From: the human T2T-CHM13v2.0 reference genome, Homo sapiens
DNA length: 64,000 nt
Assembly: GCF_009914755.1 (NCBI RefSeq)
Contig: NC_060935.1
Strand: one strand, 5' to 3'
Below are positions 1 to 60,464 of this stretch, one piece after another (the stretch's first letter is position 1; every line of letters begins with the position of its first letter). The notes under the pieces were generated by a model that was given only the letters and a program-made list of their open reading frames with translations, did no database searches and was not told the DNA's origin. The translations under genes and the position numbers were made by a program.

Positions 1-458
1 ACCCTCCCCACATACCCTGAGAGTACCAGAGTTTAGCCTTGCGCCTCTCCCATTGCTCGGACTCCATAACACAGAGCTGTCCCTGGGACAAGAACACACC
101 TTTCCAGAGATCGGGTCAGCCTGGTTAGTCCAGGTGGCCAGCGATCCTGGAATAGAGTTGAGTGGTCGATGGTGGCCACCTTTGTGGGGAGGAGGTCCAG
201 GTCTTCAGATCTTGTGAACCAGACGCGAGTAGGTTCTGAGGCAGGGCAGCCCACGGTGCTGGGTGGTATCATCTGGCCTCACAGTGACCGGCCAAGGGCT
301 CGGGGAGCCAGGGTTCCTGGCAAAAGCCAGCGGGGACGCCGGGTGTTCTGGGAGAGGCTGGTCTGTCCGTAAGCTGGCCCGGCTTTGATATGGAGCTGCA
401 CGTTCACCTGGAGGCAGGGTCCTAAAGGTAGAGAGGCTGCTGCGCCCCTCCTTGCTCT

Positions 459-548
459 TTCCAAGCAGACCTGGCCTGCAGGAAAGGCCTCACACTGGGA
501 CAGGCTGGAGAGGCCACTGTGGTTGGGGAAGGTTCCAGGAGGGCAGGC
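459..548 (-). pseudogene. Exon remnant: best-preserved GCC2/GCC3 repeat
   Basis: Single frame ACPPGTFPNHSGLSSLSQCEAFPAGQVCLE; the F in FPAG is TTT, one substitution from Cys TGT. Confidence 0.8.
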
Positions 549-890
549 GTGGAGGGAGCACAGGAACTGGGGGAGCCTGCTACCACCAGAGAGTTGGGGG
601 AGTCCGGGTAGAGTCCAGCGTCCTGGGGAGTCGCAGCAAGGTCCTGCCGTGCCCACGGCCTGCTGCGTGGCTCTCCACGGTATCCTGGTCTCTCTGAGTT
701 CCCTTCCCCATGGACAAGGCCATGGTGACAGCTCCACAGAAGCCTCCTGAGCATGGGAACCTGAGACAGTGCTGGGCCTCGGTGCTCCAAGGTGGGTCCT
801 GGACCCCCAGGCTGGCTGAGCGGGAGCCTTGATCTGGAGGGAGTGGCCCTTGCCAAACCCGAGGAGGGCAGAGGCCTGGAGAAGCCTCAC

Positions 891-949
891 CTTGACAGGG
901 GCTGAGGCTCTGAAGGTGGTGGGGAGGACTCTGAACCCCCTTGGGCCAC
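891..949 (-). pseudogene. Candidate exon remnant (59 bp)
   Basis: Acceptor ttcttaatggcag| and donor caag|gtgagg; protein motif weak (..LQSLSPCQG). Confidence 0.4.
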
Positions 950-1914
950 CTGCCATTAAGAAATGGCAGGCACTTAAGCCAGTGTGCATGCTACACCTGG
1001 CTGTGTCAGCCCATCCTGGGAACGGGCCCTGTCTGGGAACGCCCCACCCCTGTCTGCTGCAGCGAGGTGAAGATCAGCACCTTGCCAGCATCCCCTGGCA
1101 GCCCTTTCTGTCTGTGCTATGAATTCTCTCTCACTTTTTCTTTTACCCAACACCATCTACATGGCTGTTCGTGCACAGGACTTTGATTTCTGTGATGTGC
1201 TCTGATGTGCGTCGACTGTATTTTATCTACCCATGACTGCACTGCTGGCTCCTGCAGCCATCAGAACCAACCTTTAATTAACATCACTGTATATACGGCT
1301 TATAGATTCAAAGGAGTTATTGAAGTTAGTCTTAAGACAGAATCCAAATGATGGGGTTTTATGCACTGGAAATGGCCCTTGAGGGGAAGGATGAGATTAC
1401 CATTCCTGGGGAACTGTGGGGCTACGGTGGTGGAAAGGGGAGTTGCTGGTAATCCCTTCCCTCATTCTCACCCAGCGTGCATAAAATGCTGCTTCCTTTC
1501 CTAGCACATGTGCATTCCAATTCCTCCATTCTAATTTGATATATTTTTATCCAGGCACACATCTCCTCTGACAGGCAGGTGTCATTTGCTGGATTCTCTT
1601 TCTACCTTTTCTCTAAAACCTTTACTCATTTGCCAATCTTGGCAGACAGCTGGCATAATTTTTTATAGGTCCGGAATTTTATAATAGACTGGCATTATTT
1701 TGAGTTCTGGATGCCCCCATTTTTTAAAATGTCTTAAGAAAAGTCTCTGAGATATGGAAATGAAAACATGAAAAAGTTTAATTTCCTGCCTGAAATGGAG
1801 ATGAAGAAGAGAAAATGTCAGAACAAACACAGATTAATTAATAGTAATATAAATTATCCTTTTTCTTTAATGAAAGAGGAATCATGCTTGGCAGATGTAT
1901 GAGGGAAAATGCCT

Positions 1915-2110
1915 GCCTGGCTCTTGGATTTAGAGAAATCTGAATTTGCATCCTGGCACTGTGTGACCTTGAAGAAGTTATTAAGTGCCTCTAGGCCTTC
2001 ATTTTTAAATATATAAAATAGGGATGGCTTTCTGCACTCATAGGACTTGTGTGAGGATTAAACGAGATGCGATATCAGAGGATACCTCATGTGGGTTCAG
2101 GCACTGATTA
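1915..2110 (+). mobile_element. MIR
   Basis: MIR core tgtgtgaccttg...ataaaataggga...gtgtgaggattaaacgagat. Confidence 0.75.
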
Positions 2111-2209
2111 GCATCTGAGCTTTGCCATCATCCTTAAGCTACAGATTGGATGGAGGAAGGTCAGCGTGAACCAGCCTGAGGGGTCCTGCGGTTCCTGTGG
2201 AAGGCTCAC

Positions 2210-2386
2210 CTGTGGAGGGGGACAAAGTCCTTCTGAGCACCCACGCTGAGGCTGGGTTTCTCTGAGGCCCCCAGCTGACTGTGGACGCAAACACCCCCTG
2301 CTTCCCCCTCTCGCCAGGAGCTCCTGACCCTGTGAGCTCCAGGCAGCTCTTTACTGAACAGATCTTGATACCCAGGGGAACATTTC
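2210..2386 (-). pseudogene. Candidate exon remnant (177 bp, phase 1-1)
   Basis: Acceptor gcttcag| and strong donor ccacag|gtgagc; fragments KCSPGY, SVKSCL and GCSEGLCPP in different frames. Confidence 0.45.
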
Positions 2387-3029
2387 CTGAAGCAATTGCA
2401 CGCTTGCATTTTATGCTTGGAAATTCCACTTAGGCTGTGCTCCTAGGGAAGGAGTCTGGACCCTGCCTCAGACCAGGGGCCCTCCAGCTGCCCCCTGTGA
2501 TCCTGTCTCTCTGGAGGGGATGCTGTGCTCACCCCAGGCATTCATGGGGGCCCCTGGAATCCTCTACCAGATCAGATTAGCTAAGAGCTAGAGCTGGTGC
2601 CAGAGCAGACTGGGAACCACCTGGTGGCTAAGACCATTTTCTCCAGCTTCCGTGATGGTGTGACTAAGTGTGGCCCGAGGGGAGAGAGGGGAATTAATAA
2701 TTGGTTCCGAGGTAAATTGATAGAGGAGATATAATGAGGAATGCTGACTTTGTGTGATATTGCTTGGTGCTCCTGTGCAATGATTGGATTTGCAAAGTCC
2801 GTGACTCAGCTCGTTCTTTGGGAAGTGAACCCTTAAAAATTGAGAGCTAATGAGAGCAGCCGTGTCCCTCTGATGCCAAGGTTCAGAACCTGGAGCCACG
2901 TGGGAGAAAGGCCATGAGAAATGGAGAAGAGTCTGCATCAGAAATGGCATGAGGGGCCCTGCAAACTGACCCCATTCCTTCTGGAATCGCTTCTCCTCTG
3001 GCTGGTAAGTGTGTACTTCTTTCTCCCAC

Positions 3030-3273
3030 AGGCTCCTGTAAGTGGTGCTGGCTCTGCTGTCCACCCAAGGCAGCCGTCCCTGTGAGCCCCTGGTGAGCCG
3101 GGCTCCCGCCCTGTGAGGTACACACCCTGCAGGCGCAAGAGGGGTGCAGATGGGCTGAGTGCTGGGGGGATAAAGGCAGGAGGGGACTGAGAGGAAGGCT
3201 GGGTTGGACCGGGAGCCAGCTGGGCAGGGGCATTTATTGGGCACCACCGGGGCATACACAGTCCGGGTGCTAC
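3030..3273 (-). pseudogene. Exon remnant(s)
   Basis: Acceptor ctgctccacacttcag|G then GSTRTVYAPVVPNKCPCPAGSRSNPAFLSVPSCL; downstream DGCLGWTAEPAPLTG. Confidence 0.65.
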
Positions 3274-3394
3274 CTGAAGTGTGGAGCAGGGTGAGGACAA
3301 GAAAATGGAGAAAAGAAAAATCCCTGCTATTGGGTAGCTTAAGACTTGTGCTGGAAAATCAGTGGATCTGAGCAAGGTGCAGAGGAAGAGTGTG

Positions 3395-3500
3395 AGTCCA
3401 GGAATGCAGCAGTTGATGCTCCAGGCCTCACAGCGCTGGGCCCAGGGCCGGCTGACTGCACTGTACACCCAGACAGGGCAGCTCAGGGTGGAGTTATCGC
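3395..3500 (-). pseudogene. Exon remnant
   Basis: SCPVWVYSAVSRPWAQRCEAWSINCCIPGLT fits the spacing CPxGxYS..C..C..C..GLT. Confidence 0.6.
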
Positions 3501-3852
3501 AGGCCTCATCCAATTAGAGACTAAAAGTGTCCCCTACTCTTACTGTTCATGGTGACCTTGTGAGTCACCAATCTTCTATCTGATGCTAAATATTATTTTA
3601 ATGGGTTTTGATATTTTAAATATAAACCATAGACGCACTCAGAACAGATGATTCTTATTTTATCACGTGGCTTTCTGAAGAGCTGTGCGTGTAGCTCTAT
3701 GCAGGTAGATCTGGGTGAAAGCAACGGTGCAAAGTGGCTTCTGCCCTTCCAAGCTTTGGCAACTCAGCAGGGAGGTGCTGGTTCCTTCTCCCACCTACGC
3801 TCCCTGTCAGGGCTGATCCTCAGTAATGGGCAGTGTGGTCCTCGCTTTTTCA

Positions 3853-3960
3853 CCTGTTATCTGTCACCGACAGCAGCAAATCAGGCAAGGGCTGTGCAGA
3901 GCCCACACAGGGAGCATGGCAGAGCAGCGGCCCTGAGGCTGCAGGATGGAGCCAACGCAT
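3853..3960 (-). pseudogene. Exon remnant
   Basis: QPQGRCSA / frameshift / CVGSAQP, then aacag|gtgaaa. Confidence 0.5.
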
Positions 3961-4354
3961 CTCTCAGTTAAGAGCCAGGGGTCTGGGTTCCTTTCCACCT
4001 TTGCACCATCAAGCGGTGTGGCCTCTTACAAACCCTCAGTGCTGGTATCCTTGGTCCCTTCTGATTGCCACAAAGGGTCAGGAGTGGGGGCTGGACCACA
4101 ATGAGAAAGTCCCTTCAAATTGTGACCATTTGTGGTTGAACTGTGTGACTTACAGCACGGAGATTCTGAGTCGCTTTGATAGGAGCTAGAGTTTCAAGGT
4201 TAAAAACAAGGTGAGTACAATATTGAGATAAGTAGATTCTAGATTCACCCTTGGAGACTGGCACAGTTTGTAGGTGTGGAGGAATGGGAACACAGCCCTG
4301 AGATCGAAGATGAACAAAAGGGAATAATCCAAGAGGAAAAGCTCAGAGGGTGGG

Positions 4355-4447
4355 TAGGTGTGGGGACAGGAGAGGCAGGACCAGCCCTGAAGAGCACAAG
4401 TAAATGTGGCCTGTCCTCGTCTGGAGCTGCTGAACACCCCGAGACAC
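4355..4447 (-). pseudogene. Exon remnant
   Basis: Acceptor cccctctcag| then CLGVFSSSRRGQATFTCALQGWSCLSCP. Confidence 0.55.
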
Positions 4448-4509
4448 TGAGAGGGGAGGGGTGAGGTCACCTCCCCTTCCCAGGCCTGTGTGTGGGTCTC
4501 TCTCTCTGT

Positions 4510-4510
<1 letters not shown>

Positions 4511-4548
<38 letters not shown>

Positions 4549-4553
4549 GCACA
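4511..4553. repeat. (CA)n microsatellite
   Basis: Direct reading. Confidence 0.95.
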
Positions 4554-4774
4554 GCATGAGGTATGCACATGGTCTCAGCTGACATCTGAAAGCATGGGAG
4601 TGCTTTATCTGCGCTGAGATCTCTCCCGCCGTCTTCCTGGGAGAGGAGGAACGGGTGCTTTACCACAGCCGAGCGTTAGGGGGCGCCAGAGGAGCTGATA
4701 TCGGACTTGCTTAGAGGAAGATTTAGAAATGATTTTTGCTCAGAAAGGAAAAGCCGGGAGCATAAACACATCAA

Positions 4775-4900
4775 AAGGCCTCTGCAGCTGTGCTCCCTGC
4801 TAGCGAGGGGCTGGCCCTGGCTGAGTCCTCTGGTGGCTGTTGGAGATTTCCAGCCTGCCTCAAAGGGCCGTGCTTCTGCTCCAGCGCCAGGAGCCAAGGC
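4775..4900 (-). pseudogene. Exon remnant abutting an L1 fragment
   Basis: RPFEAGWKSPTATRGLSQGQPLASREHSCRG resembles PCEAGxFS..GLSQCQPC with Cys losses. Confidence 0.5.
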
Positions 4901-6183
4901 TAGCCCAAGGTCATACAGATTTTTTTCCTGTTTTCTTCTCAAAGTTTTATAATTTTTGATTTTACATTTATTTCTATGATCTACTGTGAATCAAGTTTTG
5001 TATATGGTGTGATAAAGCTCATTTAATACATAACGAATTGTCTCAGCACTGTTTGTTAAAAAATACTCTTTTTTTTTTTCTGCTGAAACGCCTTTGTACT
5101 TTTGTGGAAAATTAATTGTGTATATATACTTGGGTCTATTTCTGGCCCCCCTAGTTTCTTCCCATGGGTCTATTTATTATCTGCATTTATGACAAGATCA
5201 CACTGGTTTGAGTATTGCAGTTTTATAGTAAGTTTTGAATCAGATGTTAGGCCTTTAACTTTGTCTGTTGTACTTTCTGATAAATTTTAAAATGATGTTA
5301 TTACGCATATATTCAGTAGTTTGATTTAGCTGTTCCACAATGTATATACATTTATCAATCTTCTTGTACACCACAAATATTTATAAATTTTGTCAATTGA
5401 AAAAATAAACAAAAATGTAAAACAAATTATTTTATGAATTTCTTAAACAATATTTCTGGGACTTGGAATTGCATCAAATATATAGATCAATTTGGGCATA
5501 TTTGGTAAGATTATTGGGTCTTATGACCTATGGACATGGTGTATTTTCTCTGTTACTTAGGCTTTTTATTTTCACTCAGCATTACTTTATAGTTTTCGGT
5601 GTATAGGTGTTGCATGTCTTTGCCTTACTTGATGCTAAATATTCCTACTTTTTATCTTATTCTAAAGTGTATTCTAAGCATTTCAAGTTCCAAATATCGT
5701 TTGTAAGTATTACAGAATAAAGTTTATTTTTTGACATGAATACATGCTTTCAGATAGGCTTTATTTTTTAGAACAGTTTTAGATTTACCAAAAAATTGAG
5801 AGGGTAATATAGAGTCCCCTACCCCCGCACCCAGGTTCTCCTATTGTAAATATCTTACATTAGCATGGACAGTTGTCACAACTGATGGGCCTATGCTGAT
5901 GCAGTAACTAAAATCCACACTCCATTCCAGTTTCTTTCATTTTCCCCTAACGCCCTCCCCCGTTTCAAGATCCCATGCGGAATCCTAGGTTACTTTCAGT
6001 CGTCATGTCTTCCTGGCCTCACTTGGCTATGAGTGGCTCAGGCTTCCATTGTCTTGGACAATCTTGACAGTTTTGAGGGCTACTCAGGTGTTCTATAGAG
6101 TGTCCCTCACCTGGGATTTGTCTGATGTTTTCCTTATGGCTAGACAGGGGTTATATATTTTTGGGAGGAAGGGGGATCACAGA

Positions 6184-6400
6184 GGTGAAACGTGCCATTC
6201 TCATCCCACTGTATGAAGGTATGGACTCAATGCCAGTGTTCCCAACCTTGGTCATGGTGAAACGTGCCATTCTCATCCTGCTATATGAAGGTATGGACTC
6301 AATGCCAGTGTTCCCAACCTTGGTCGTGGTGAAACGTGCCATTCTCATCCCACTGTATGAAGGTATGGACTCAATGCCAGTGTTCCCAACCTTGGTTGTG
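6184..6400. repeat. Tandem repeat, 3 x 72 bp, inside L1MC-type sequence
   Basis: ggtgaaacgtgccattctcatcc... starts at 6184, 6256 and 6328. Confidence 0.95.
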
Positions 6401-9391: not shown

Positions 9392-10352
9392 ATTCCTCCG
9401 ATTCTTTTAAATGTATTTGAGACTTTTTCTGGCCTATTATATGGTCTGTGTTAGAAAATATTCTGGGTTCAGTTGAAAAGAATGCTTACTGTGATATTTT
9501 AGGTGTTAATATTCATTAAATGTCAATTAGATCAAGTTACTTGATAGTATTTTTCAAATCTTCTATATCCTCAACAATTTTCTATTTGTTCTATTAATTA
9601 TAGACAGAATGATATTTTTCAAATGTGATTAAGCTTGTGATTTTTTTCTCCTAGTCATTCTAAGAGTTTTTGCTTCAGCGATTTCAAAACTCTGTTACTA
9701 GGCAGGTATAAAACCATTTAGGATGGTTATGTGCTCCTGATGAACTGATCATTTTTCTTATAATGAGCCATATATTCTTTTTTCTTTGTGTGCCAGATAC
9801 ATTTTTATTGGATGCCAAACATTGTTAATTTTACCTTGTTAGGTGGTGTGTGTTTGTGTGTGTGTCTGTGTCTCTGTGAGTGTATGTGTATATGTGTGTG
9901 TGTATACATATATATTGCTGTACGTATTATCTGGCTCTGTTCTGTAATTCCGTCATGTTACTGGAAATTGATTTGGTCATTTTGAGTCATAGGTTGAACT
10001 GGAGCTCTATTTGGTGTAGGGGTAGTTATTTTTCACTACAGAGAAAAGACCCTTCTATGTACTGTAGCTGATGTCTCATGTCCTGTGAGGTTTTCCAGTC
10101 TGGCTGGTGGAGGCACACACTGTCCTTATTTCTGTGTGAATCTGCTGGACACTGCTGCGTCTAATCCTTTTGGGTATTTTCGTGACAATGGGTAACTTAC
10201 TTACACCCGTGCACTGATAAGCACCCAATCATCCAGCTTTTATTTTTAATACTAAAGTGAGAAAAGCAAATCTGGGAGGAATTTCACGTGCTCTTTTCAA
10301 AGCCAAATGTAAATTTTCTACCTTTTTAGTCTCCACGCCTTTGATTCCCTTT

Positions 10353-10488
10353 CCCCAATTAGACAGGCACTTGAGGACTGGGTGCATATGTGAATGGGAT
10401 GAGTCTTTCCTGCCACAGGTCCCCAATTAGACAGGCACTTGAGGACTGGGTGCATATGTGAATGGGATGACTCTTTCCTGCCACAGGT
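10353..10488. repeat. Tandem duplication, 2 x 68 bp
   Basis: ccccaattagacaggcac...gccacaggt at 10353 and 10421, one mismatch. Confidence 0.95.
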
Positions 10489-10489
10489 G

Positions 10490-10866: not shown

Positions 10867-11486
10867 CTACAAGAAAAGTGTGGCCTTTCCCCACATCTCC
10901 ACCCACAGTGGCTTTGCCCTCTCTCAGCAGTGCATAAACAGGCTGCAGCGGAAGACCAGCTGCTCACGACGAACGCTTCTCCCTGGTGCCCCACTGCCTC
11001 CAGCCTGAGTTCAGTCAGTACTCAGCTGCAAATCTCGTCTCTAAATCCCAGGCAATGTGGCTGTCCTGTCACCTCAGCATTCCAAGGGGGTCAAGAAAAG
11101 TTGTGAACTTGCTGTTTATCTGAATTATTTATTGCAAGTTTGGGAACAACACTCTTTCCAACTCTCCAGGCAGAAATAGGAAAGCCTCTGCATGCTTCTG
11201 GAGTACTTTTTGGTATCATTGTTTGCTCCTAAATAGTCTTATTCGCTACACTCTTTATATTTAGTGGTTTTCTTTATACACACACACACACACACGCACA
11301 CAAACACACACACAAGTTAGCAAAACTTAGCAGTCTAAGTAAACCACTTCCTGTAAAATGCTGGAAACTTAGGAAATTGTTTCATTTACACCTCATGTCC
11401 TTTGCACTATTTCTCATGATTTTTGTGCATGTTATAAATCCCAAATGCATGGCTATTATTTTTCATTTAAACAGTTTATTATCTAT

Positions 11487-11779
11487 TTTTTTTTTCCTGA
11501 GACAGAGTCTTGCTCTGTCACCCAGGCTGGAGTGCAGTGGTGTGATCTCGGCTCACTGTAACCTCTGCCCCCTGGGTTCAACCAGTTTTCCTGCTTCAGC
11601 CTTCTAAGTAGCTGGGATTACAGGCATGTGCCATCATGCCCAGCTAATTTTTGTATTTTTAATAGAGACGGGGTTTCACCGTGTTGGCCAGGCTGGCCTT
11701 GAACTTCTGACCTTGTGATCTGCCTCCCTCAGCCTCCCAAAGTGCTGGGATTACAGGCATTGAGCCATCGCACCTGGCC
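11487..11779 (-). mobile_element. Alu (AluS)
   Basis: Full antisense Alu dimer. Confidence 0.95.
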
Positions 11780-13513: not shown

Positions 13514-13639
13514 TCTGGACACCTCCAAGGAACACTCTGTATTCAAGGAAGCATCCTATCGGTAATGCTTCCACTCTGGACACCTCCAAGGAACACTCTG
13601 TATTCAAGGAAGCATCCTATCGGTAATGCTTCCACTCTG
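13514..13639. repeat. Tandem duplication, 2 x 61 bp
   Basis: tctggacacctccaaggaacac...ccactctg at 13514 and 13575, identical. Confidence 0.95.
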
Positions 13640-14267: not shown

Positions 14268-14769
14268 CTGGGATATCATTCATTAGAACTGGCTGTCCAC
14301 TACCAGACCTCCTTTTCTTATTTTGCCTAATAGGACAAGCTGCATTCATTGACAGAATTCACCGTTTTTATCCTTCTTCCCCCTGCCCACCACTGCCGCC
14401 ACCTCTCTCTCTCTCTCTGTCTATTTAATACAGGGACTCAGGCTAAGAACTGCATGGTATAATGCGTTTATCATTTTTATCTCGTCGTTTTTATTCTAGT
14501 GTGAAGTTGTTTTTCAGGTAGTGATGAACTCACACACAATTTCTCCCCTTTTTGAGTAATTTGCAGTGTTTATGAAGAGGAGGCTAATTGTGCTGACCTG
14601 TTACCAGAGTTGTCATTAGTGTTTTCCTGCAGTTGATTCCTATATTGTCTTCTGTCTCTCATGCAAGCCCATGCTCCTTATTCTTTCTTAATGGATGCTT
14701 TTTCTGTGGGGATAATCAAGGAACTGACAGCTCCCTCGAGATTAAATGTATGACTTTGAAGTTGTAGAA

Positions 14770-15027: not shown

Positions 15028-15300
15028 GGCTGGGTGCAGTGGCTCATGCCTGTAATCTCAGTACTTTGAGAGGCCAAGGCAGGAGGATCACGAGGTGAGG
15101 AGTTTGAGACCAGCCTGGTAAACATGGTGAAACCCTGTCTCTACTAAAAATACAAAACTTAGCTGGGCATGGTGGCTCGTGCCTGTAATCCCAGCTACTC
15201 GGGAGGCTGAGGCAGAGGTTGCAGTGAGCGGAGATCACACCACTGCACTCCAGCCTGGGCGACAGAGTGAGACTCCATCAAAATAAATAAATACATAAAT
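15028..15300 (+). mobile_element. Alu (AluS) with an internal right-arm deletion
   Basis: TSD aagattaactga/ttaga (15012-15027, 15301-15316). Confidence 0.95.
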
Positions 15301-15809
15301 AAGATTAACTGTTAGAGCAGGACTTGGGGGCAGGGGGCAGGGCAGTGAGATATGCTAACCCTATTCTCCCACTCAGGTGACAGGAGGGCAGCTGCTGATG
15401 CAGACGGAGGGTGCTCCCTGTCTCAGCAAGAGCAGAGTCCACGGGTTGAGGCAAGGGGGGCCTGCTGGAAGTCAGGCCAAGTGGAGCTCCGGGTGTACTA
15501 GAAAGGTGGATGCAGCTCACAGCACGGTGAGATGTGGAAGTACAGGCATTTGGTGTGTGTGCAGGAGGAGCTGGTGACAACAAGGCTGGCCCAGGCCCAG
15601 GAGACCAATGGGGCATTAGGATGCCTCCTACATAAGGTCTAGGGAAGAAATGCAGCTGTGAGAATTAGGCTCAGAAACAAAGCAAAAGCACAGGGGCGTG
15701 TGGTGTGTCCCTAATGCTGAACTCTGGGAATAGGTCTGGAGGGTGGAAGACCAGACATTGTGCTGCAGTCGCGATTGGTCCTGGTGACTAGGAAAGGGAA
15801 TCCAGAGAC

Positions 15810-17320: not shown

Positions 17321-18214
<894 letters not shown>

Positions 18215-20797: not shown

Positions 20798-21097
<300 letters not shown>

Positions 21098-22201: not shown

Positions 22202-22500
22202 TTTTTTTTTTTTTGAAACGGAGTCTTGCTTTGTCGCCCAGGCTGGAGTGCAGTAGCAGGATCTCGGCTCACTGCAAGCTCCGCCTCCCGGGTTAACACC
22301 ATTCCCTGGCCTCAACCTCCCGAGTAGCTGGGACTACAGGCGCCTGCCACCACGTCCAGCTAATTTTTTTTTTTTGTATTTTTAGTAGAGTCAGGGTTTC
22401 ACCATGTTAGCCAGGATGGTCTCGATCTCCTACCTTGTGATCTGCCCGCCTCAGCCTCCCAAAGTGCTGGGATTACAGGCATGAGCCACCGTGCCCGGCC
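22202..22500 (-). mobile_element. AluY
   Basis: AluY diagnostics; TSD aaccctggca(c/t)tct. Confidence 0.95.
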
Positions 22501-22523
22501 AACCCTGGCATTCTTGTACTCAC

Positions 22524-23475
<952 letters not shown>

Positions 23476-29799: not shown

Positions 29800-30528
29800 C
29801 TTGTATTAGGATTATACATCCCGACCTTTGTTACACAACCTTGTGATCTCTCCCTCTAGAGGAGGCACAACACACGTCCCCACCCAGTTGATGCTGGGTT
29901 TGAACTATGGAGTGGTAGCAGATGTATTGTGGGCGAGGGCCTTCAATCTGCTTGCCTGGCTTGGTTTAGCCAGTGTTCTCTGGTGGTCCCCCCCGGGAAG
30001 CACAACCATTGCTGCAACTGCCCCTTCGGCCTGGGGGCAGAACTGACCCCCAAGGTAAGCCTGGAGTCCAGGCTAGCTCAGCCTAGATGAGTTGAATCAT
30101 AATCGGCTTGCAAACTGTTGAGAGTGAATATAAATACGGGAAATGATTGAGATTTTGAGATACAGGAGTCTGCCCGCATCAATGGTTTCACTTTCCACAG
30201 CTTCAGTTACTGTGGTATGAAAATATTAAGGTATTTTGAGAGAGAGAGAGAGTCCACATTCCCATGATTTTTATCACATTTTATTGTTGTAATTGTTAAA
30301 TTGCTCTCTTATATTATCAGTTGCTGTTGATCTCTAACTGTGCCTAATTTATAAATTAAACTTTATCATAGACATGTGTATGTACAGGAAAAAAACAGTA
30401 TATAGAGAGCACAGTACTACCTGCGGTTTCAGGCATCCCACAGGGGTTTTGGAACATATCACCTATAAATAAAGGGGGGCGGGAGACGCTAATGTAATTT
30501 GCTATACATCAAAAACCGACAAATACAT
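29800..30528 (+). mobile_element. MLT1-type LTR split by MER44
   Basis: MLT1H/I-like text (agcctggagtccag..cagcctagat) resuming after 30490 and ending in aaataca. Confidence 0.55.
30163..30490 (+). mobile_element. MER44A-like TcMar-Tigger MITE
   Basis: ggtttcactttccacag..aaaatattaaggtattttgagagagag..gtgcctaatttataaattaaactttatcata..ggtttcaggcatcc. Confidence 0.8.
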
Positions 30529-31379
30529 TCTGTTAACTTTAGAGAAATAAACTATCAAGGTGTCATAACATGGAACACGGGAAATTGGTGAAAAATGAAT
30601 AAAATGTAGTTATGTGTGTCTGCATGAACAAATACCCCAAACACAACATTATATACAAAAGCAAGTTTTAGTATAATATAATCGCATTCACAAAAAGTTT
30701 TAAAATAAAAATAATACCTATATGTGGTAAAAAATGTTATAAAACGACTAGTGGTAGTTATACCTTGGGAAAATGAATCATTCAGGAGTTGGTGATCGGG
30801 GATTTAGGCATCGTGGCAATGTTTTATTTTTCAAGCTGTGTGATAAGCCTATAGGTTATCATGTTATTATTCTTGTGCATGTTATACTCTTCAATATTAC
30901 ATACTGAATTTTGAAATATAAGAATGTAAGTTTTTGAGATAAGTTTTATGCCTATGAAGTGTTATCCAAATGTTAATCATACATGTTATTTTTGAGTCTT
31001 GGTCATGTAGGCATGTGTTGGTAGGAAGTGTGATGTTTTTCATTCTGCCTAGATTGTATTTTGGTCCACACCCATGCTAGTTCTGTTGGACTAAAGAACT
31101 CACTCAGGAGGTTGAGTCTTTACCACTAGAAGTCCTCACGAGGACTTCTCCTGGAGATCAAAACTCATAAAACATTTTCTGGGTTCCCTCTTCTCCCTCA
31201 TCCCACCCGAAGGTGCATAGGGCACTGTTGTCAGTAGAATCACCATGTTCTCTACTGGCTGGACTCACCCTGCAATCAGCTGACATGAGATGACAAAATT
31301 GAGACTGTTCTTATCTTGGATTTGTTGAGATCGCTCACGTTTTTTATTCTCCCATCTGTTTGGTCTGGGAAGTACAGGA

Positions 31380-35900
<4,521 letters not shown>

Positions 35901-38489
35901 GTTTATGGTTGAGATTAACTTTGAAATCTACAAGATACTTTTAAATAAAGGACATCAAACTCCAATTCAAAACACGTGTGTTCTGTCTCTATCCACAATC
36001 ACAGATATATTTCTAAAATACGTGTTTCTAAACATCTACATCCTACTTGTTGGCTTCTGTGTGCCATCCTCAGGAGGCCTTTTCTCATATCATGGGCTGG
36101 GCCTGCCTCTCTGCCATATACATTTTACACTCTGGATCTCATGTTTGCTATCCGTATCCCACTTGTACTAACGTGTTGAGTGTCTCCCTAAGAGACTGTG
36201 AGCTCTGAGAGGGCAGAAGACGTTGTGTCAGTCTTGTGCCCCTGCTCTCCCTGCAGAGCCCAAAACATGGCCTTGTGCCTAGGCTTACAACAAATATTTA
36301 TGAAATCCATACGTATACATAAGAAACAAATGTGTTATCAATTAATATTACCAGTTTAGTAGCCTTGGAAAATGTCTCATAAAAACTTTATGTCAGAGTT
36401 TCCCTTATCTGGAAATCAAAGAGATGAGCGAATATCATTAAAGTTTTTTATACTCTAAAATTGTTTCTCCGATTTTCTTTGATTTTCACAACTATCTGCT
36501 GAGAAAGAAAGATACTCATTTTAATTTTCAGATTATAAGTGAGAAAAACATTTTTCAAAAGGATTAAGCAATCTGTTTAAAATTGCATAGCTAATTAGTA
36601 AAAAGGCTTGGGCTCAAAGTTGTTTGACTTTATACTTTATTTCGAGAAATACATTATTATATGGAGAAATCCCTTCTACTGTAGCTTAACTCCTCCTTTA
36701 AAAAAGGAAAACAAGCAAACACAAAAAATCTTTGTGTTTATATCCTGCTTCTTCAAGAGATTGTGAGCTTCTTGAAGGCCAGAGCTGTAAATTATATATT
36801 TTTGTGATTTCCCCAAAGTCTCAAATGTGTTCTACACAGTGCAGTAAATAATTTGATATAATTCTCTGCAGGAAAATTGATCCAGTGCTGAAAACCAGTA
36901 AACAATTCTCATTAACTGTCTCTGTACCTCATGTGTCACACAGAATTTGTCCTATGGTAAGTGATTAAACCTGGTTGTTAAAGCAATGAATGATTTATCT
37001 AGCAGAATGTCAAGTTTTGAAGCCCTCCCACCTGGACCCTTTAGCCTCAAGGCTGCCATACCACAGCCCAGGTTCTGTTGAGAAAGATGTTGCCGGACAG
37101 TCTAGGTACGGGTGTAGAATTTGCCCTTCCTAATTTGTTTATCCTCTTCCAATCTTCATTGCATCCTTTATCTGGTAGCAGATTATTTTTTCAGGGGTTA
37201 AAACTTCATGTGCTTTCTAGGACTAGATAGGTAACATGAATGTGTAAATCTGTGGTCATAAAACAATAGGGTGGGACGATTCCTGTAGCAAACTAGAGCT
37301 GAGAAGGCCCTATGCATAGGTAAAAACAAATTTTAAATGCTAAAATCACCCCACCTTCCTGAGCAAATAAAATGTCTGTGCATCAAGCTAAGCCTGGGGC
37401 CCGCAAGTTCATGTCCCCTGCTTGGGGTCATTCCACACCTTTGCTCAGATGTTTGCCGTGTACTCCACCCGGCTACACAGACACATTCAGACTTCTCAGC
37501 TGGGCACACAGGCTGCTCCGAAGTCTGGTCTCAGCCCAATTTCCCAGCTGCTTCTCCCCTCTGCTCCCACACACAGCCTCCCACACTCCTGTCCACCTCT
37601 ACTGTGGGCTGTCCCTGAGCCTGACACTGTGCATCTCACCTGCTGGTCTGCTCTGCTAGACGGGTAACATGAATGTGTGAATCCGCTGGCCTGCTCCGTG
37701 CTCTGCATGCTGGAATCTGACTGTTGGAATCCTGGGTTGCCTCAGCTGCGCTCTCCACAATGAGGCCTTTTCGACTGACTCCTGCAGGGTGCATGTGGAC
37801 CTTTCCCTTTGGTTTGCATAGCCCTGGGAGGCTATTTATTTTCACTCTCGAAGCCATTTTCTGTACCTTCACCACCAGTTTACACTTCAGGAAACTAAGA
37901 CATTGAAAGCTAAGTGAGCTGACCAAGGCTGCATTTTGAGAAATGGCTTTTCTTTACCAGTACCTGCACACTTGATAACTGCATACCTTCCCTACTGGTT
38001 TAAAACTATCTGTGGGCCCTTGTCCAATGTTTGTACTGTCCACAGCACTTTTCACAGTGTTTGGCACACTGTAGATGATCAGTGAATGTCTGAAGGTCGA
38101 ATGGAGTTTATGCTGAATAGGTGTGCGTCTGTGTGTGTGTGTGCGTCTGTGCGTGTGTGTGTGTCTGCATTTCAGGTAATAGAGTCTCATTATTCCTTCA
38201 CAAAGGCATTGGTATTTGGAATTGACATCCAGAGCTGGTTTCCTTCAAACTCATTTTTTACCTTGATTTCCTCAGTGATGATGATGACATACACCCATTG
38301 GCCCATCTCTATCTTTAACTCACCACTGGATCCATCCTTTTCTCTTTCTTTTAACCTGCTTGAATGCAAACCAAGCCTTTGATGCAACGACAGCTTTGCT
38401 GATGTACGTGGTGTTGGTGACGTCATGGTTTCCTAAGTAACAATCAATCTGCTGTGCTAAAACTCTACGGAAGAAAGCCATTAAAAAGG

Positions 38490-38531
38490 ATTGTGTGAGT
38501 GGTGTGTGTGTGTGTGTGTGTGTGTCTGTGT
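38490..38531. repeat. (TG)n microsatellite
   Basis: Direct reading; a second imperfect TG tract lies at ~38120-38165. Confidence 0.9.
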
Positions 38532-39712
38532 ATACCTGAAAACAAACACACTAAGTGTCCATGCACACACACTGGTCATCTTTTTAAAGAATATCATCAA
38601 CAAAATTTCACTGTAGCAGCATCAGTGAGATGAGTCCCAGTGGATGAAGTGGTTTCCATGGAAATGTGTTATTGTGCTTTGGAAAAGCAGCTTGTTCTGC
38701 ACATGAGAAAGATGTAAAATAGGGGCTCAAATCCCATGTGAACTCACACCACTGCAAATATAGCCTCTAAGCACCTGGAACAGGCAAAGGCAGAGGCTGG
38801 AGTTTAAGAAATAGGGTCAGTTCCACCAGCATGCCCGGGACCTTGGCTGTTGTCATTTACTTGTTCCTTGTTGTCAGAGACCCCAGAAGCTGGGAGCTCT
38901 CCGAGATTAGGCACTGCACCTTGAGTCACGATGGTTGTTATTATTTTGTATTACTTATCAGCCATGTATAAGTGCTTTACATATATTATCTCATTTAGTT
39001 ATCACACAGCCTTAAATGCGAGTTAGGTTCTTAAGTCCTTTCTGTAGTTAGGGAGGTTAGAACTATGTTTAATTGCCTTGGGGCCTTGCTAATGCCTGGC
39101 TGCTGGTAGGTGTTTAGATGGATAAATGGATGCAGGAGTGAATGAGGGAGCAAGGGAAGATGTGGCAGAAAAGGCAGGTTGTTACTGGGAAGTCTCTGCC
39201 CAAGCCTGGGGAGCAGGGTACAGGATCGGAACCATCAGACATTCATGCTGATAATGGGGGCCGAGGAGCTTGGGGACTGAATGGCTTGACCAAATCTTTC
39301 CAGCACCTCCCTAGAATATTGGTTGACAGCCCCCAAGAGAACAACCTGTTTAGGTCAGCTGAAGCTGAACCACTCAATCTCAATTCATAAGTCCACCGAG
39401 GAATACATTTTTTTTTCTCCAGCAAGCTTTAATACAAGAGGCCTGAATTCTCAGCCATAGAACCTGTTCTCAGCCTGTTTTTCTGGCTCTGGCTGAGCCC
39501 CAGCCAGATAGAAGATATTTCTGAACATGGAGGGTGGTTTAGGAGCTGTCAGCATCTAGTTCACAGAAATGGCCAGGAGGTGTTCAAATACCAGAGCAGA
39601 GGGGACAGTGGGAAGAGACATTTTCAGCAACTATGGGCTCTTCCTCTGAGATTAAAAAAATACAAAAGGCAAAACTCCTTTTTTGCTCGATGTTGATAAG
39701 AATGTACACTTT

Positions 39713-40121
<409 letters not shown>

Positions 40122-43068: not shown

Positions 43069-43390
<322 letters not shown>

Positions 43391-46940: not shown

Positions 46941-46964
46941 ATATTGCCTATGTTTTTATGTGAG

Positions 46965-55980: not shown

Positions 55981-57394
55981 AAAGTTCATCTATTATTACC
56001 AGAAGCAATTGTTATTTTCTAGTCTAGACCATAAAAAAATCACAGGAATTTTGGTATTATGGAGATAATATAACAAAAAGAGTATTTCAGAAAGTCAAAC
56101 CTGGTGGTTCATTTCAGAAGGGTCACTGACAGTAAAAGCAAGTTAATAGACGGTGGCCGCAGATGGAATAACCAATGGTTCTTATTAGGTATTCAGAAGA
56201 TACGAAATGCTCAGTGGTGTATTTCTTCTCATTTTCGTGTATTTCATAAAAGGAGTTCAAAGAAACTCGAAAGCTATCATCTGGCCCTAAGCTTCCAGGG
56301 TAAAATAGGAACTATTGACTGAGAAATAGTTTGAAACTAACATTCTTGAACTATTGTTATGAACAAGAAAATATTTAATAGACTTGCATGAGGAATTAGA
56401 AAGCTTTTGTGTTTCTTTTCTAAGTCAATGTCATATTGAAGAGTAAACTAAAAGAGCCCTCTCAGTAGAATGAACATTTAAATAAGGATAAGAAGATAGA
56501 CCTTAGGTAGAGATAGATGGATGTAGACACGGACATAGTCATGGATATAGGTAATAAAGACGTAGACACAAATGTGGACATGCACGTGTGCAAACAAACA
56601 CACACACTACTACACTAGAAAGAAAGAGGGAGATTGGGGAAAGGGTCTGAGAGAACACAAAAGGAGTGGAGTCTGGAAGGATAAGTAGGAGTTACAAATG
56701 AAGAAGAAAAGCTTTCCATCTTTAACTGTGGAAAAACCTGTCAAACTCTGGTTGTAAATCCAAGTTTTCCAAATCGTTAATTTTCACTTGAAATTTCAGA
56801 TTTCTCATTGGCAACTCACACATGAGTTGTTTTCCTTGAAGTTGTGTTATTTTTTGAGAAAATATCCATTCCATGAAAAAAATAAAGTCTATGTCAGCTT
56901 GCAACGCAGACACTTGCAGGCACGGCTCTCCTTGAGACAGTCAATGCGCTTCAGCAGCCTCAGAGGGGAACTTCCCGTTTGGCCTCATGGGATGTCACAA
57001 AGTTATGCACTCAAGGAATAAAATCAATAAGTTTTACTGCTTCATCAAGGCAATTTTTAAGTGGAATTGCCCACACTTGCTGTGCATGCATGGCCCTAAG
57101 ATGATGACAGAGTATGGAGCCTCTGCCTTGATTGGTGCTGAGGCCTCAGCAGTTGTGTCTTCATTTTTGCATCATGAGTGGAAATGTCAGCACAGAATTA
57201 AGAAAACAAGTGGGTCTCATGAATCCTTCCATGGTACAGAGACCACAGTTTGAAAACCTTTGATGTGAGGCTTAAGGCGTGGGAAGAAGATTCTTCTTTC
57301 CTCCTTTTCCTGCTCCTACTGTCCCTGCTCTTCTCCTCCCACTTTGTCATCGCTCTGCCCTCCGTGGGTTTCTTTGGGGCCTGTCCTAGGAGTA

Positions 57395-60293
57395 GGAAGG
57401 GGCAGATGGCACTGGGGCTGCACTGAAAGCTAAAATCTCTCTGGAGCAATTAGGGTTTCTGGCTCACCACTGTTCTGGTTCCTTTTGCTGGTGGCTTTCT
57501 CTGCACCAACTCATCCAACCCCCACATTGCCAAAACAAATAAAACATAACGACAAAGCTAAAAATTCTACAGGAATTAATGTGTATACTCTTTCTTTTCT
57601 GTAATAATTCCTGTGCACAAATTAAGAATTTAAGGAGCTTTCAGAAAACTCCCCTACGCATTATTTTTTACTTCATCTTCACAGCAAGCTTGAGAGGCAG
57701 GTAAACACATATCATTATTACCGTTTCACTAATGAAGAAACCAAGGCTCAGAAGGGGTGAGGTCATGCTAAAAATCTAAACTTAGCCACCCACTGGTTTC
57801 CCCTCTGAGGATCCAAGTTCTCAGGGCAGGGAAAGTGTCTGTCCAGCTCTGGAAAATCATTCTGAAAACCCTGTGCAGTCATCAGCAGGAAAGGGAGAAG
57901 TGTTATGTGAAGTCTTCCGTGTAACTCCTAGGAGCCTCTCCTCATGGTGCCACATCCTTGCCTCTGGCATGTTCCTGAGAGCTGAGTTTGGGTTGGACAC
58001 CTCCTCTCTTTCTCCTTCCCCACAGCTTTGAAAGCCCAGCCAAGTCCTTAGCTGGGCTCACTAACTAGGCTCAGAACAAAAGACTGATCTGTCCCATAAG
58101 TCAGCACTCCAACTGGTTCAACTAGACTATCAACCCTTCACGGGAATCAATTGCTTCTCAGCAATGGCAGGTGATTGGCAGGTGCTGGGGGAGGAAGAAG
58201 GGAGTGGGGAGAGGTTGTGCGGAGCTGCAGGGAGTGGCACCAGTGTGGCCAGGGTCTGCAGGAGGTCACTAGCTCTGCTCTTCACAACCCTTAACCTTTT
58301 GAAATGACAGATACAAAATTACTTGCTGGATTTGAATTTATTCCTTTGCCTTCAACACTGGAGTTTTCCTGATGAGATGAGGGTTGACACAAGTTTTCCA
58401 GACTTCTAATCTCTGAACACTCTGAAAAAATAAAACCTCTCTGACTCTTTGGAGAATAGGTCCTAGTAAGTTTCAAAGGGCTACATCCCTGTCAATACCT
58501 TCATCCACAAATGTGAACTGTATTCAAAGCAGGTGGAAAAAAGTTCTCAATCCTTCAGGTTATAAACCTTTATGTGGGGCAAATATTGTGACTCCGTGTT
58601 ATTTTTACAGAATATAGTGACAAAAGCAAAACAGCAGGTTCACAAAGTTAGCATCTCCCTTCCTATGTGGCAAGTCTGGCTTCCATCCTGTAGGACATTG
58701 ACATGGCTTGGATGTCCCACCCCAATCTCATGTTGAACAGTGTTTCCAGGTGCTGGAGGTTGGGCCTGGTGGGAGGTGTGTGTATTACGTGGGCAGATCC
58801 CTTGTGAATGACTTGGGCCATCCCTTGCTGATGAGTGAGCTCAGGCTTTGAGTTCACATGAAATCTGGTTGTTTAAAAGTGTGTGGCACTGCCTCTGCCT
58901 CTTTCTCTTCCTCTTCCTCCTGCTCTCACCATGTGACACGCCTGCTTCTAATACAATCTGCCTGCTGTCGCTTGGCCTTCCATCATGATTGAAAGCTCCC
59001 TGAGGCCTCACCAGAGGTGGAGCAGATGCTAGCCATACTTCCTGTACAGCCTGCGTACCTTGAGCCAGTTAAACCTCTTTTCTTCATCAATTACCCAGTC
59101 TCAGGTATTTCTTTATAGCAATGCAAAAATGGCTTATTACAAGTGTGCAGGTCATTTAGGAAGAACTTGAGCAGGAGGCAAGGTAGGGAGTAGAATGAAG
59201 AGAAACAGAGGCCATACTGTGAAACCTCACCTGTCACCACCCTCTCCAGGTGTGTGTCCTTGGTGTTGGAGTAAGAGGGATTGGAAACCTCACCTCGGGA
59301 TGGCTGTGATTTTAGTCCATCCATTTCTGCAGGTGCTGGCTTCCTTTCCTTTTATGTCCCCTGAATTTCTCTGACTGCTTTTGAGATTATAGCAAGGTGA
59401 ATGGGTGGGATGATGGGGAGATTTAACTATTTCCTGGCCCCTGGAGCATCTCCAACCTCCGACTTAGCGGGCAGGGGCTGGGCTGTGGGTCATAGCCAGC
59501 CTGCGTTATCAGGGGGTGCCTGTCATTCTAACCCCCTTATCTATAGCAGACAGGTTCACACCTAACCCTTATCTCACGTAGGCTGGGGGAGTTTGTGAAA
59601 ACCCTCCTGAGCAAAGTAGCAATGACTCTTTTCACTGAACAGGCACAGCGAAGCTAAATATTTCCTTCTTACCTGCCTCTTTCCTATCCCCAGTACTCAG
59701 AGGGAGGCCGTGAGCCCCGGGGATGTTCCCTCAGTAGGTTGTGTGTTTTCATCTTGGTTTTCCACACAGGGGATGTATTTGTGTTGTCCTCAGCACCTTC
59801 TTACCTGGTGTCTTTGTGACAAAATGAGGGAGCTGGATGGGAGAGGGAGGCTCATTTTCTGGAGGTATTGAATAAAGAGGGCCTTTCCTCCATTGTTTTG
59901 GTTGAGAGTTTAATAATATGCACTGAAAGTCAGGGAGAAGTGCTGAATTGTCCTTCCCTCCTACCAAGGAAGTACCAGGCTTTGGGCTGTCTGTGATAGA
60001 ACAAGGGATGGCTCCCGAGAGCCTGGCAAACCCAAAGTAGGGGTTTGATGCAGGTGGTTCAGCATCCTGGCATGTAGGCAGCGAGTCAAGTTGAATTTGC
60101 AGTGGAGTGATAGGTGAGCTGAATTATCAACTCAGGAGTCAGGTCGACACACAGGTGTTCCGGTGAAGGCCAGGGCAAGCCGGGTCAGGCGATCCAGCCT
60201 GCAGGGTAGCCTTTCATTGGATGCTGATGCAAAGCAAGCGGCAAGCTTGGCCAGGGCCAAGTCCTGAGCACCAGGAGGACAAGGACATGGGCC
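57395..60293 (-). pseudogene. Cluster of exon remnants (5'-most recognisable part)
   Basis: FQCSPSAICP (~57400-57428); TSCRPWPHWCHSLQLRTT (58213-58266); PQPSPCPL (~59465-59490); PHFVTKTPG|gtaaga (donor 59805); GPCPCPPGAQDLALAKLAACF (60231-60293). Confidence 0.65.
58699..59141 (+). mobile_element. MST (MSTA/B-like) solo LTR
   Basis: tgacatggcttggatg...ttacccagtctcaggtatttctttatagcaatgc...taca. Confidence 0.88.
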
Positions 60294-60464
60294 AGACAAT
60301 TTATGCAAGAAAATCATGGAGAGATGTGAGTGCCAGGGGCACCACCACTACGAAGTTACACCCTGCCTCAGATCAGCTGCTTCTGTGCAGTGTAAATTTG
60401 TTCTTGATGACTTATTTGTCATTCTGTTCCCAGAGTCTTTCTGGTTCAAAACAAGATTAAGTTT

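What the first reader, a model, noticed from the sequence alone, without database searches (positions are those of the whole stretch)
400..60300. A 60-kb fossil gene for a giant GCC2/GCC3 Cys-repeat protein hidden between the repeats
Seen: most non-repeat islands translate on the minus strand into pieces of one repeating Cys/Gly/Pro pattern (CPxG.YC..G, PCPPGTFS..GL....C..CPAG, GL..P.G.C, GTTGG.C), often next to AG|G acceptors or G|GT(A/G)AG donors. No comparable recurring signal was noticed on the plus strand. Known: this pattern is the GCC2/GCC3 (Pfam PF07699 Ephrin_rec_like) repeat. SCUBE, SVEP1 and Eph proteins carry a few copies, and very long arrays occur in large uncharacterised animal proteins (from memory, mouse Gm9195 and fish predicted genes; unverified). 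Inference: an intron-containing, many-exon gene that was inactivated in place (unitary-type loss) and would look like intergenic or lncRNA space in annotation.
Basis: partly seen in the sequence, partly recalled or inferred. Interest (0 to 1): 0.88.

Follow-up and report, generated by a model that had tools for sequence, protein, structure and literature searches.

The report
Small dead fragment of Cys-repeat gene
Only the first kilobase of this window holds a decayed piece of a cysteine-repeat gene, copied long ago from a locus on chromosome 2, and the other 59 kb show no trace of the proposed giant fossil gene.

Summary
The claimed 60-kb minus-strand fossil gene is not there. In window 1100-60300 the core motif C[PA].G occurs 11 times on each strand, against simulated means of 14.3 (+) and 11.6 (-). 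Pfam PF07699 matched 0 of the 150 longest minus-strand open pieces. tblastn with 63 natural family proteins gave no HSP better than E=0.05 there.

One island is real. Window ~1-1035 (minus strand; clearest exon relic ~411-590) is 72-74% identical in DNA to chr2:110463003-110463678 and to its inverted twin. It also drew all 10 tblastn HSPs at E<=1e-3, against 0 in the reversed control.

The homology runs colinearly from 5.6 kb left of the window to 1035 and includes an intron. It is therefore a non-processed, partial duplicate of about 6.6 kb.

The source is a many-exon GCC2/GCC3-repeat locus at 2q13, which RefSeq splits into 'SCUBE3' and 'PEAR1-like' models plus lncRNAs. That locus is the only human match to a bird family member.

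The extent, 'giant' and 'unitary' are wrong.

The parts
1..1035 (-). In-window part of the duplicated gene fragment. The whole fragment is chr11:134906394-134913035, that is window -5606..1035.
   Evidence: Four colinear same-orientation blastn blocks link chr2:110458854-110463678 to window -5606..1035. The in-window block is 391-1035 against chr2:110463003-110463678: 72.3% over 678 columns, E about 1e-110. Over all 995 aligned bases identity is 73.6% and K2P 0.335. Only 3 places genome-wide: itself and two chr2 copies.
983..1035 (-). 3' tip of an upstream exon relic, and the right-hand breakpoint of the homology, which falls inside that exon.
   Evidence: It aligns to the end of the chr2 exon that reads ..CPAGRACTQAGLTHPDAACSPG. 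The chr2 donor GGG|GTAAGT reads GGCTTAAGT here. Similarity stops abruptly right of about 1035; the next alignment rows show 34-47 identities per 100 columns.
591..982 (-). Intron relic.
   Evidence: It aligns to chr2 about 110463216-110463625, between a GTAAGT donor and a ..CTGTAG| acceptor, with 69-81 identities per 100 columns. That is at least as high as in the neighbouring exon (51 and 69). The Cys motif is continuous across this gap on chr2 (CSPG / .YVCPSG), which supports calling it an intron; this last step is inference.
411..590 (-).
   Evidence: It reads ..FLCSLHACPPGTFPNHSGLSSLSQCEAFPAGQVCLERARRGAAASLPLGPCLQ, followed by GTGAAC. It aligns to turtle, annelid and bird family proteins with E from 2.7e-6 to 1.8e-5 and scores 19.4 bits with the chr2 repeat HMM. 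Lesions relative to chr2 and the family: an 8-base gap at the exon start, and Phe where the second Cys of CxxC is expected.
21..192 (-). Weak relic of the next exon downstream.
   Evidence: In the pairwise alignment the chr2 exon at 110462500-110462739 (..CPPGIWSNQTGL..CMPCPRGWFC..) falls on window about 21-192 with 48-50 identities per 100 columns and one well-matched stretch of about 20 bases. Blastn does not detect it, so this part is tentative.

Best explanation
Window ~1-1035 is the right-hand end of a ~6.6-kb dead, non-processed, PARTIAL duplicate of a gene segment. The whole fragment is chr11:134906394-134913035.

Its source, or sister, is a many-exon minus-strand locus at 2q13, chr2:~110444700-110464000. 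That locus is repeated as an inverted near-identical copy at chr2:110.75-110.77 Mb next to NPHP1. It encodes, or once encoded, a large protein built of GCC2/GCC3-type cysteine repeats of the form CPxGxYCPxG...PCPxGTF...C..CPxG.

A stretch of genomic DNA carrying about five exons with their introns was copied to distal 11q25. It has since drifted neutrally to about 74% identity. At mammalian neutral rates recalled as 1-2.2e-9 per site per year, K2P 0.335 puts the copy at roughly 80-170 million years old.

The fragment has lost splice sites and cysteines and has no detectable function. The rest of the window (1036-60300) contains no detectable part of this or any other GCC2/GCC3 gene.

Shown: the homology, its colinearity, its intron content, its limits, and the absence of signal elsewhere.
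Inferred: the direction (chr2 to chr11), the age, and the lack of function.
For: (1) The 264-aa open piece of the island matches chr2:110463075-110463680 and chr2:110752520-110753125 at E=2e-20, 45% identity. In DNA it is 73% identical, E=1.2e-93, with no other place in the genome.

(2) tblastx finds the block in all frames on both strands, which means DNA-level rather than frame-specific conservation.

(3) There are four colinear blocks from window -5606 to 1035. Exon relics also lie at -474..-352 and -4532..-4434.

(4) The intron is as similar as the exons, and donor sites are lost on chr11.

(5) The chr2 locus carries 19 minus-strand repeat hits of at least 12 bits. Its motif counts are 63 on minus against 12 on plus. 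PF07699 is found in 3 of 10 of its exon pieces at 17-21.9 bits. The Atlas places it among PF07699 clusters. Orthologous fragments from bear, tiger, duck, penguin, tamarin and frog are 40-77% identical to it.

(6) Bird protein P0007 matches the human genome only at the two chr2 copies: 18 of 18 matches at E<=1.

(7) Power test. When a copy of the 20-kb chr2 locus was mutated at 26-35% substitutions plus 3-4% indels, the same blastn settings recovered 19 of 19 exons in 15 of 15 trials. The missing exons were therefore not simply decayed at the same rate.
Against: - The protein-level negative is weak on its own. At 26% substitutions plus 3% indels the repeat HMM recovers only 0-3 of 19 exons. A much older, independently decayed array could therefore escape every protein test used.
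- Pfam itself does not call PF07699 on the window island.
- With only 8 orthologue fragments the island scored 12.8 bits, against 14.3 for the reversed control. Significance appeared only with 63 queries.
- The direction of the duplication, and whether the copy was partial from the start, were not tested. No other vertebrate genome was available.
- In one exon the chr11 copy keeps an open frame where chr2 has a TGA and a frame shift. The chr2 locus is therefore not an intact parent today.
Confidence: 0.8

Rival explanations
1. One reading: a ~60-kb, many-exon giant GCC2/GCC3 gene inactivated in place (unitary pseudogene), spanning window 400-60300 on the minus strand.
For: One genuine minus-strand GCC2/GCC3 exon relic lies at the left end. 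Protein-level tests have low power against neutral decay.
Against: - Window 1100-60300 shows no motif excess and no strand asymmetry.
- PF07699 is found in 0 of 150 pieces.
- The best tblastn E there is 0.05, on the plus strand; HSPs at E<=1 number 22 on minus and 17 on plus.
- The repeat HMM gives at most 9.5 bits, against 9.0 for the control.
- Homology to chr2 ends abruptly at 1035, inside an exon.
- A paralogue with shared intron sequence exists, which rules out 'unitary' for the part that can be seen.
- If the motifs were readable by eye, regular expressions would find them; they give 0 hits.
Confidence: 0.03
2. A once complete second copy of the whole chr2-type gene sat at 11q25. Its other exons were later removed by large deletions or overwritten by insertions, leaving the 6.6-kb remnant.
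For: The remnant has sharp limits on both sides. An L1-like insertion lies inside it at window about -3999..-2735, which shows the region has been remodelled.
Against: No trace of the 14 or so more 3' chr2 exons was found in the 34 kb to the left, nor of the 5' part in the window, although blastn power is 19 of 19 at this divergence. The right breakpoint lies inside an exon, as expected for a random duplication endpoint, though a deletion endpoint would look the same.
Confidence: 0.13
3. The similarity between chr11 and chr2 is due to a low-copy interspersed repeat or to chance, not to a gene duplicate.
For: tblastx matches in all frames. The genome DNA search skips very common words (tool note).
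Against: - Only two loci in the genome hold it, plus the recent chr2 twin.
- Four blocks are colinear over 4.8 kb on chr2 and 6.6 kb on chr11.
- The blocks coincide with chr2 exons that match bird, turtle and other family proteins.
- E values run from 1e-93 to 1e-110.
Confidence: 0.03

Closest known systems
The 2q13 locus chr2:110444700-110470900 (T2T) and its inverted twin at chr2:110.745-110.772 Mb. RefSeq models: LOC124905945 ('SCUBE3'), LOC124900614 ('PEAR1-like'), lncRNAs LOC105373985, LOC124906058, LOC105373986.
   Same: It has the same sequence family at the DNA level, 72-74% identity including an intron. Orientation and exon order are the same.
   Different: The chr2 locus keeps about 19 recognisable repeat exons over about 20 kb. 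The chr11 copy keeps about 5 relics over 6.6 kb, of which about 1 kb is in the window. chr2 matches orthologues at E down to about 1e-35; chr11 reaches only 2.7e-6.
An unnamed metazoan family of GCC2/GCC3-repeat proteins. Its members carry varied automatic names: SCUBE1/3, MEGF10/11, SVEP1-like, zonadhesin-like, 'AB24G'/'WBC30' in bird annotations, and 'GCC2 and GCC3 domain-containing protein'.
   Same: The repeat grammar is shared: CPxGxYCPxG..PCPxGT[FY]S..G......C..CPxG.[FY]C...GL..PSGPC. The window exon relic aligns to it.
   Different: Those are predicted proteins of other species. Only fragments of 113-355 aa could be retrieved because of the tool's length window, so the full-length architecture was not seen. 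The window copy is broken and partial.
GCC2/GCC3 (Pfam PF07699, Ephrin_rec_like) modules of human SCUBE1-3 and SVEP1.
   Same: The general Cys/Gly/Pro module is the same. Some orthologues of the chr2 locus carry precomputed PF07699.
   Different: An HMM built from 14 strong human PF07699 copies at five loci (chr6, 8, 9, 11, 22), which I take from recall, not from an annotation look-up, to be SCUBE1-3, SVEP1 and one more gene, gives the window island only 5.5 bits, and the window maximum is 10.4 bits on the plus strand. The chr2 family is a distinct, divergent subfamily. Its exons score 17-21.9 bits, below Pfam's 23.1 cut-off.

Membership tests
PF07699 Ephrin_rec_like (GCC2/GCC3) domain | Match to the Pfam model at or above the curated cut-off of 23.1 bits. 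| tested here: not met
   The window island gave 0 families at E<=10. PF07699 was found in 0 of the 150 longest minus-strand pieces at E<=1. As a positive control, 3 of 10 chr2 exon pieces scored 17.0, 17.5 and 21.9 bits, also below the cut-off.
PF07699 Ephrin_rec_like (GCC2/GCC3) domain | Conserved cysteine spacing C-P-x-G-T-[FY]...G-L...C-x-x-C-P-x-G. | tested here: inconclusive
   The island reads CPPGTFPNHSGLSSLSQCEAFPAG. The pattern is kept except that Phe stands where the second Cys of CxxC is expected.
The chr2q13-type GCC2/GCC3-repeat protein family (unnamed) | Significant similarity to natural family members above a reversed-sequence control, on one strand. | tested here: met
   10 HSPs at E<=1e-3, all on minus and all within window 282-788; the reversed control gave 0. 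The chr2-derived HMM gave 19.4 bits, against a control maximum of 9.0.
Duplicated (non-processed) pseudogene fragment | Homology to a second locus in the same genome that extends through intron sequence. | tested here: met
   The block of about 390 bases between a chr2 donor and acceptor aligns at 69-81 identities per 100 columns. The chain is colinear over 6.6 kb.
Duplicated (non-processed) pseudogene fragment | Disabling lesions: lost splice sites, indels, lost key residues, truncation. | tested here: met
   The upstream exon's donor is altered, an 8-base gap lies at the exon start, Cys is replaced by Phe, and the homology ends inside an exon at about 1035. No named protein matches the island.
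Unitary pseudogene | No paralogue of the lost gene elsewhere in the same genome. | tested here: not met
   Paralogous loci lie at chr2:110.44-110.47 and 110.75-110.77 Mb.
Unitary pseudogene | An intact orthologue at the syntenic position in other species. | not testable with these tools
   No vertebrate genome other than the human reference could be searched, and the protein hits carry no genomic context.
Giant multi-exon gene spanning the window | Many colinear same-strand exon matches across 400-60300. | tested here: not met
   There is no hit above control beyond 1035 by HMM, tblastn, tblastx or blastn against the chr2 locus, and no motif excess.

The most novel reading that the evidence does not exclude
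The interesting object may not be in the window at all. It is its source at 2q13: the only human locus, present as two inverted copies beside NPHP1, that matches a widely conserved but unnamed metazoan family of large GCC2/GCC3-repeat proteins.

It looks like an unrecognised unitary pseudogene that RefSeq has split into two small 'protein-coding' models and several lncRNAs. The 11q25 fragment would then be an ancient 'snapshot' of five of its exons. In at least one exon the fragment keeps an open frame where the chr2 copy now has a stop and a frame shift. It could therefore help to date when the human-lineage gene died.
Probability: 0.4. Interest if true: 0.35.

Novelty: new member of a known kind. 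Interest (0 to 1): 0.17.

Why it matters
The practical value is mostly negative. About 59 kb of distal 11q25 flagged as a hidden giant gene can be released as ordinary gene-poor DNA.

The small positive result is an unannotated, very old duplicated gene fragment. It points to a poorly annotated locus at 2q13, inside the NPHP1 segmental duplications. That locus appears to be the human remnant of a conserved GCC2/GCC3-repeat gene family that has no curated name.

If that locus is a true lineage-specific gene loss, it adds one case to the list of human unitary pseudogenes. It would also correct two doubtful 'protein-coding' models.

Tried and rejected
- A whole-genome PF07699 scan found nothing in the window, but it scores only 100 candidates.
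- An HMM from 14 strong human PF07699 copies gave only noise in the window.
- The Rfam gathering scan gave 0 matches.
- Pfam on selected and on the 150 longest minus-strand pieces gave no PF07699. The recurrent 'families' (MF_alpha, MCM_N, Cyclin_D1_bind; 4 members each) presumably come from translating the 36-base minisatellite; the call did not list which pieces matched.
- phmmer with the first 8 orthologue fragments was not above control: 12.8 against 14.3 bits.
- A named-protein search with the window island found nothing: 197 candidates, none at E<=0.01; 2439 unnamed candidates were left out by the tool and only lengths of 145-462 aa were eligible.
- A PDB sequence search with P0007 gave 0 hits.
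- Literature:
  - 'Gm9195' occurs in 2 papers. I read one passage of PMC12528612, a table of gene names with nothing about the protein.
  - '11q25/pseudogene/B3GAT1/unitary' gave 2 irrelevant listings.
  - 'Ephrin_rec_like/GCC2' was swamped by the golgin GCC2 and was useless.
  - The six RefSeq LOC names of the chr2 locus occur in 0 papers.
  - No supplements were opened.
- Full-length ('giant') orthologues could not be reached, because the protein search admits only 0.55-1.75 times the query length. The longest family member seen is 355 aa, and the Atlas lists a 991-aa chordate cluster representative.
- I first read the chr2 GTAAGT just after ..CPEGLACPGG as a donor. The family alignment shows the exon probably runs on to ..SGPC with a GTGAA donor, so I moved the exon end to window about 411.

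Full report
**Setting.** The window is chr11:134912001-134976000 (T2T), distal 11q25, with no RefSeq gene. The annotation lists only a silencer (window 37566-37860) and an H3K4me1 enhancer (41665-42592). Soft-masked repeats cover just 5402 bases in 26 intervals. GC is 44%.

**Checking the observation across the span.**
- I translated all six frames into 3197 stop-free pieces of at least 12 aa.
The exception is the GL...C...P.G form, which has one hit, on the minus strand at ~465-545.
- Cysteine is less frequent in minus-strand pieces (3.5%) than in plus-strand ones (4.5%).
- In window 1100-60300 the core tetrapeptide C[PA].G occurs 11 times on each strand. 200 block-wise first-order Markov simulations give means of 14.3 (+) and 11.6 (-). 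Paired motifs occur 0 times.
- An HMM from 14 strong human PF07699 copies (loci L001-L014) gives at most 10.4 bits, on the plus strand.
- Pfam finds PF07699 in 0 of 9 selected pieces at E<=10 and in 0 of the 150 longest minus-strand pieces (each at least 65 aa) at E<=1.
- So the recurring pattern claimed for 'most islands' is not in the sequence.

**The one real island.** The longest open piece of the window, 282-1073 minus (264 aa), contains ..ACPPGTFPNHSGLSSLSQCEAFPAGQVC...
- Searched against the whole reference, it matches chr2:110463075-110463680 (-) and chr2:110752520-110753125 (+) at E=2e-20, 45% identity over residues 13-204.
- As DNA, window 403-1035 is 73% identical to the same two places (E=1.2e-93) and to nothing else.
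- tblastx matches in all frames, so the conservation is at the DNA level.

**What sits on chr2.**
- RefSeq has a patchwork there: LOC124905945 ('SCUBE3'), LOC124900614 ('PEAR1-like') and three lncRNAs. The same set is mirrored beyond NPHP1.
- Six-frame translation of chr2:110440001-110480000 shows a dense minus-strand series of CPxGxYCPxG..PCPxGTF..C..CPxG exons: 34 minus pieces with 66 motifs, against 13 plus pieces with 13.
- jackhmmer from one exon gathers 19 minus-strand hits of at least 12 bits.
- Pfam gives PF07699 for 3 of 10 exon pieces at 17-21.9 bits, just under the 23.1 cut-off.
- The Atlas places an exon, and a bird homologue, among PF07699 clusters. One of these is a 991-aa chordate 'GCC2 and GCC3 domain-containing protein'.
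- Named homologues include fragments from polar bear, tiger, tamarin, duck, penguin and frog: 8 of 9 candidates at E<=0.001.
- With the bird fragment P0007 as query there are 57 proteins at E<=1e-10 among 70 candidates. They come from turtles, fishes, amphioxus, a hemichordate, molluscs, annelids and protists, under many automatic names.
- P0007 matches the human genome only at the two chr2 copies: 18 of 18 matches at E<=1.

**Extent and nature of the chr11 copy.** Sensitive blastn of chr2:110442501-110480000 against window -40000..30000 gives four colinear, same-orientation, single-copy blocks:

| chr2 | window |
|---|---|
| 110458854-110459349 | -5606..-5081 |
| 110459816-110459921 | -4523..-4428 |
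| 110461947-110462044 | -474..-378 |
| 110463003-110463678 | 391..1035 |

- Everything else shared between the two regions consists of multi-copy elements. I recognise these from memory as Alu and L1; no tool named them.
- Over 995 aligned bases identity is 73.6% and K2P 0.335.
- The base-level alignment shows a chr2 exon end (..CSPG|GTAAGT), about 410 bases of intron, an acceptor (..CTGTAG|) and the next exon. The intron aligns to the window at 69-81 identities per 100 columns, at least as well as the exon. On chr11 the donor is altered and 8 bases are missing at the exon start. Similarity stops at ~1035, inside the upstream exon.
- A further exon relic is faintly visible at window ~21-192.
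- Two more lie outside the window at -474..-352 and -4532..-4434.
- This is a non-processed, partial duplicate.

I ran tblastn of all 63 retrieved family proteins against 124 kb (window plus 40 kb to the left and 20 kb to the right).
- There are 10 HSPs at E<=1e-3. All are on the minus strand and all lie within window 282-788. A reversed control gives 0 (best E 0.024).
- The chr2 locus gives 1824 such HSPs, all on the minus strand.
- At E<=0.1 there are 41 HSPs in the island bin and 4 in the bin holding the -474..-352 relic. The rest are 3 on the plus strand at ~10.5 kb, 2 at about -29 kb and 1 at ~40 kb.
- In window 1100-60300, HSPs at E<=1 number 22 on minus and 17 on plus, best E 0.05.
- The best alignments pair ..PCPEGTFSNQTGLSSSKDCRACPGGKFC..PSGPC of a turtle protein with the window's ..ACPPGTFPNHSGLSSLSQCEAFPAGQVC..PLGPC.
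- They also show that this exon runs on to a GTGAAC donor at ~411. In this exon the chr2 copy has a TGA and a frame shift where chr11 stays open.

**Power of the negatives.** Random decay of the chr2 locus at 26% substitutions plus 3% indels leaves only 0-3 of 19 exons above 12 bits for the HMM. Protein tests alone therefore cannot exclude a much older array. The blastn settings recover 19 of 19 exons in 15 of 15 trials at 26-35% substitutions. So the rest of the chr2 gene was either never copied to 11q25 or was removed by large deletions. It has not merely faded.

**Interpretation.** A ~5-kb genomic segment of the GCC2/GCC3-repeat gene was duplicated between 2q13 and 11q25. At recalled mammalian neutral rates of 1-2.2e-9 per site per year, K2P 0.335 implies roughly 80-170 million years; this is inference. 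The copy is inert. The direction (chr2 to chr11) is inferred from chr2 holding the whole array and being the only locus that matches orthologues.

**Verdict.** It greatly over-extended the feature and mis-typed it as unitary. No vertebrate synteny could be examined, and paper supplements were not opened.

Noticed in passing
window 2452-2633, 3044-3318 and 14439-14712: A second, unrelated old local duplication. Three colinear same-strand islands match chr11:134768763-134768940 (84%), 134769353-134769606 (71%) and 134778839-134779115 (72%), about 143 kb upstream. Some patches have 88-92 identities per 110 columns, separated by poorly aligned DNA, and both copies keep an AGGTAAAT donor-like site. 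No gene is annotated at either copy. This may be conserved non-coding elements or lncRNA exons.
   Followed up: partly
window 62382-64000, continuing to L023:1981 (chr11:134974382-134977981): A 36-base minisatellite, 45 + 55 copies at 93% matches, about 3.6 kb in all. It translates into a long open LTINYDHLPQHW-type repeat and is the likely source of the recurrent spurious Pfam hits; one search did not list the matching pieces.
   Followed up: partly
L023:5584-8138 and L023:8993-9521 (chr11:134981584-134985521, right of the window): Two more large minisatellites: a 40-base unit x 64 copies and a 57-base unit x 9 copies. This fits a subtelomeric-type, VNTR-rich region.
   Followed up: no
chr2:110444700-110470900 and chr2:110745300-110771500 (outside the window): A many-exon GCC2/GCC3-repeat locus, present as an inverted pair flanking NPHP1. 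RefSeq splits it into small 'protein-coding' models named after SCUBE3 and PEAR1, plus lncRNAs. Several repeat cysteines are replaced, and at least one exon has a stop plus a frame shift relative to the family. It is a likely unrecognised pseudogene of a conserved unnamed family. None of its six LOC names occurs in the searched papers.
   Followed up: partly
window 6184-6396, 10352-10488, 13514-13639: Short tandem duplications with long units: 72 bases x 3, 68 bases x 2 and 61 bases x 2, at 95-100% matches.
   Followed up: no
window 61305-61650 and ~4400-4470: Degenerate (TG)n-rich tracts. They translate into His/Thr- or Cys/Val-rich open pieces and could mislead a reader looking for Cys repeats.
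   Followed up: no
window 11486-11779, 15039-15303, 17852-18148, 20803-21097, 22202-22503, 23126-23426, 31794-32083, 39719-40010, 43082-43372, 60462-60619; and ~32000-36000: Ten ~300-base multi-copy elements match two elements in the chr2 locus at 70-83%. A 33% GC stretch carries an open piece typical of an L1 ORF2 remnant. The names Alu and L1 are my recollection, not a tool result. Most of these elements are not in the supplied soft-mask table.
   Followed up: no
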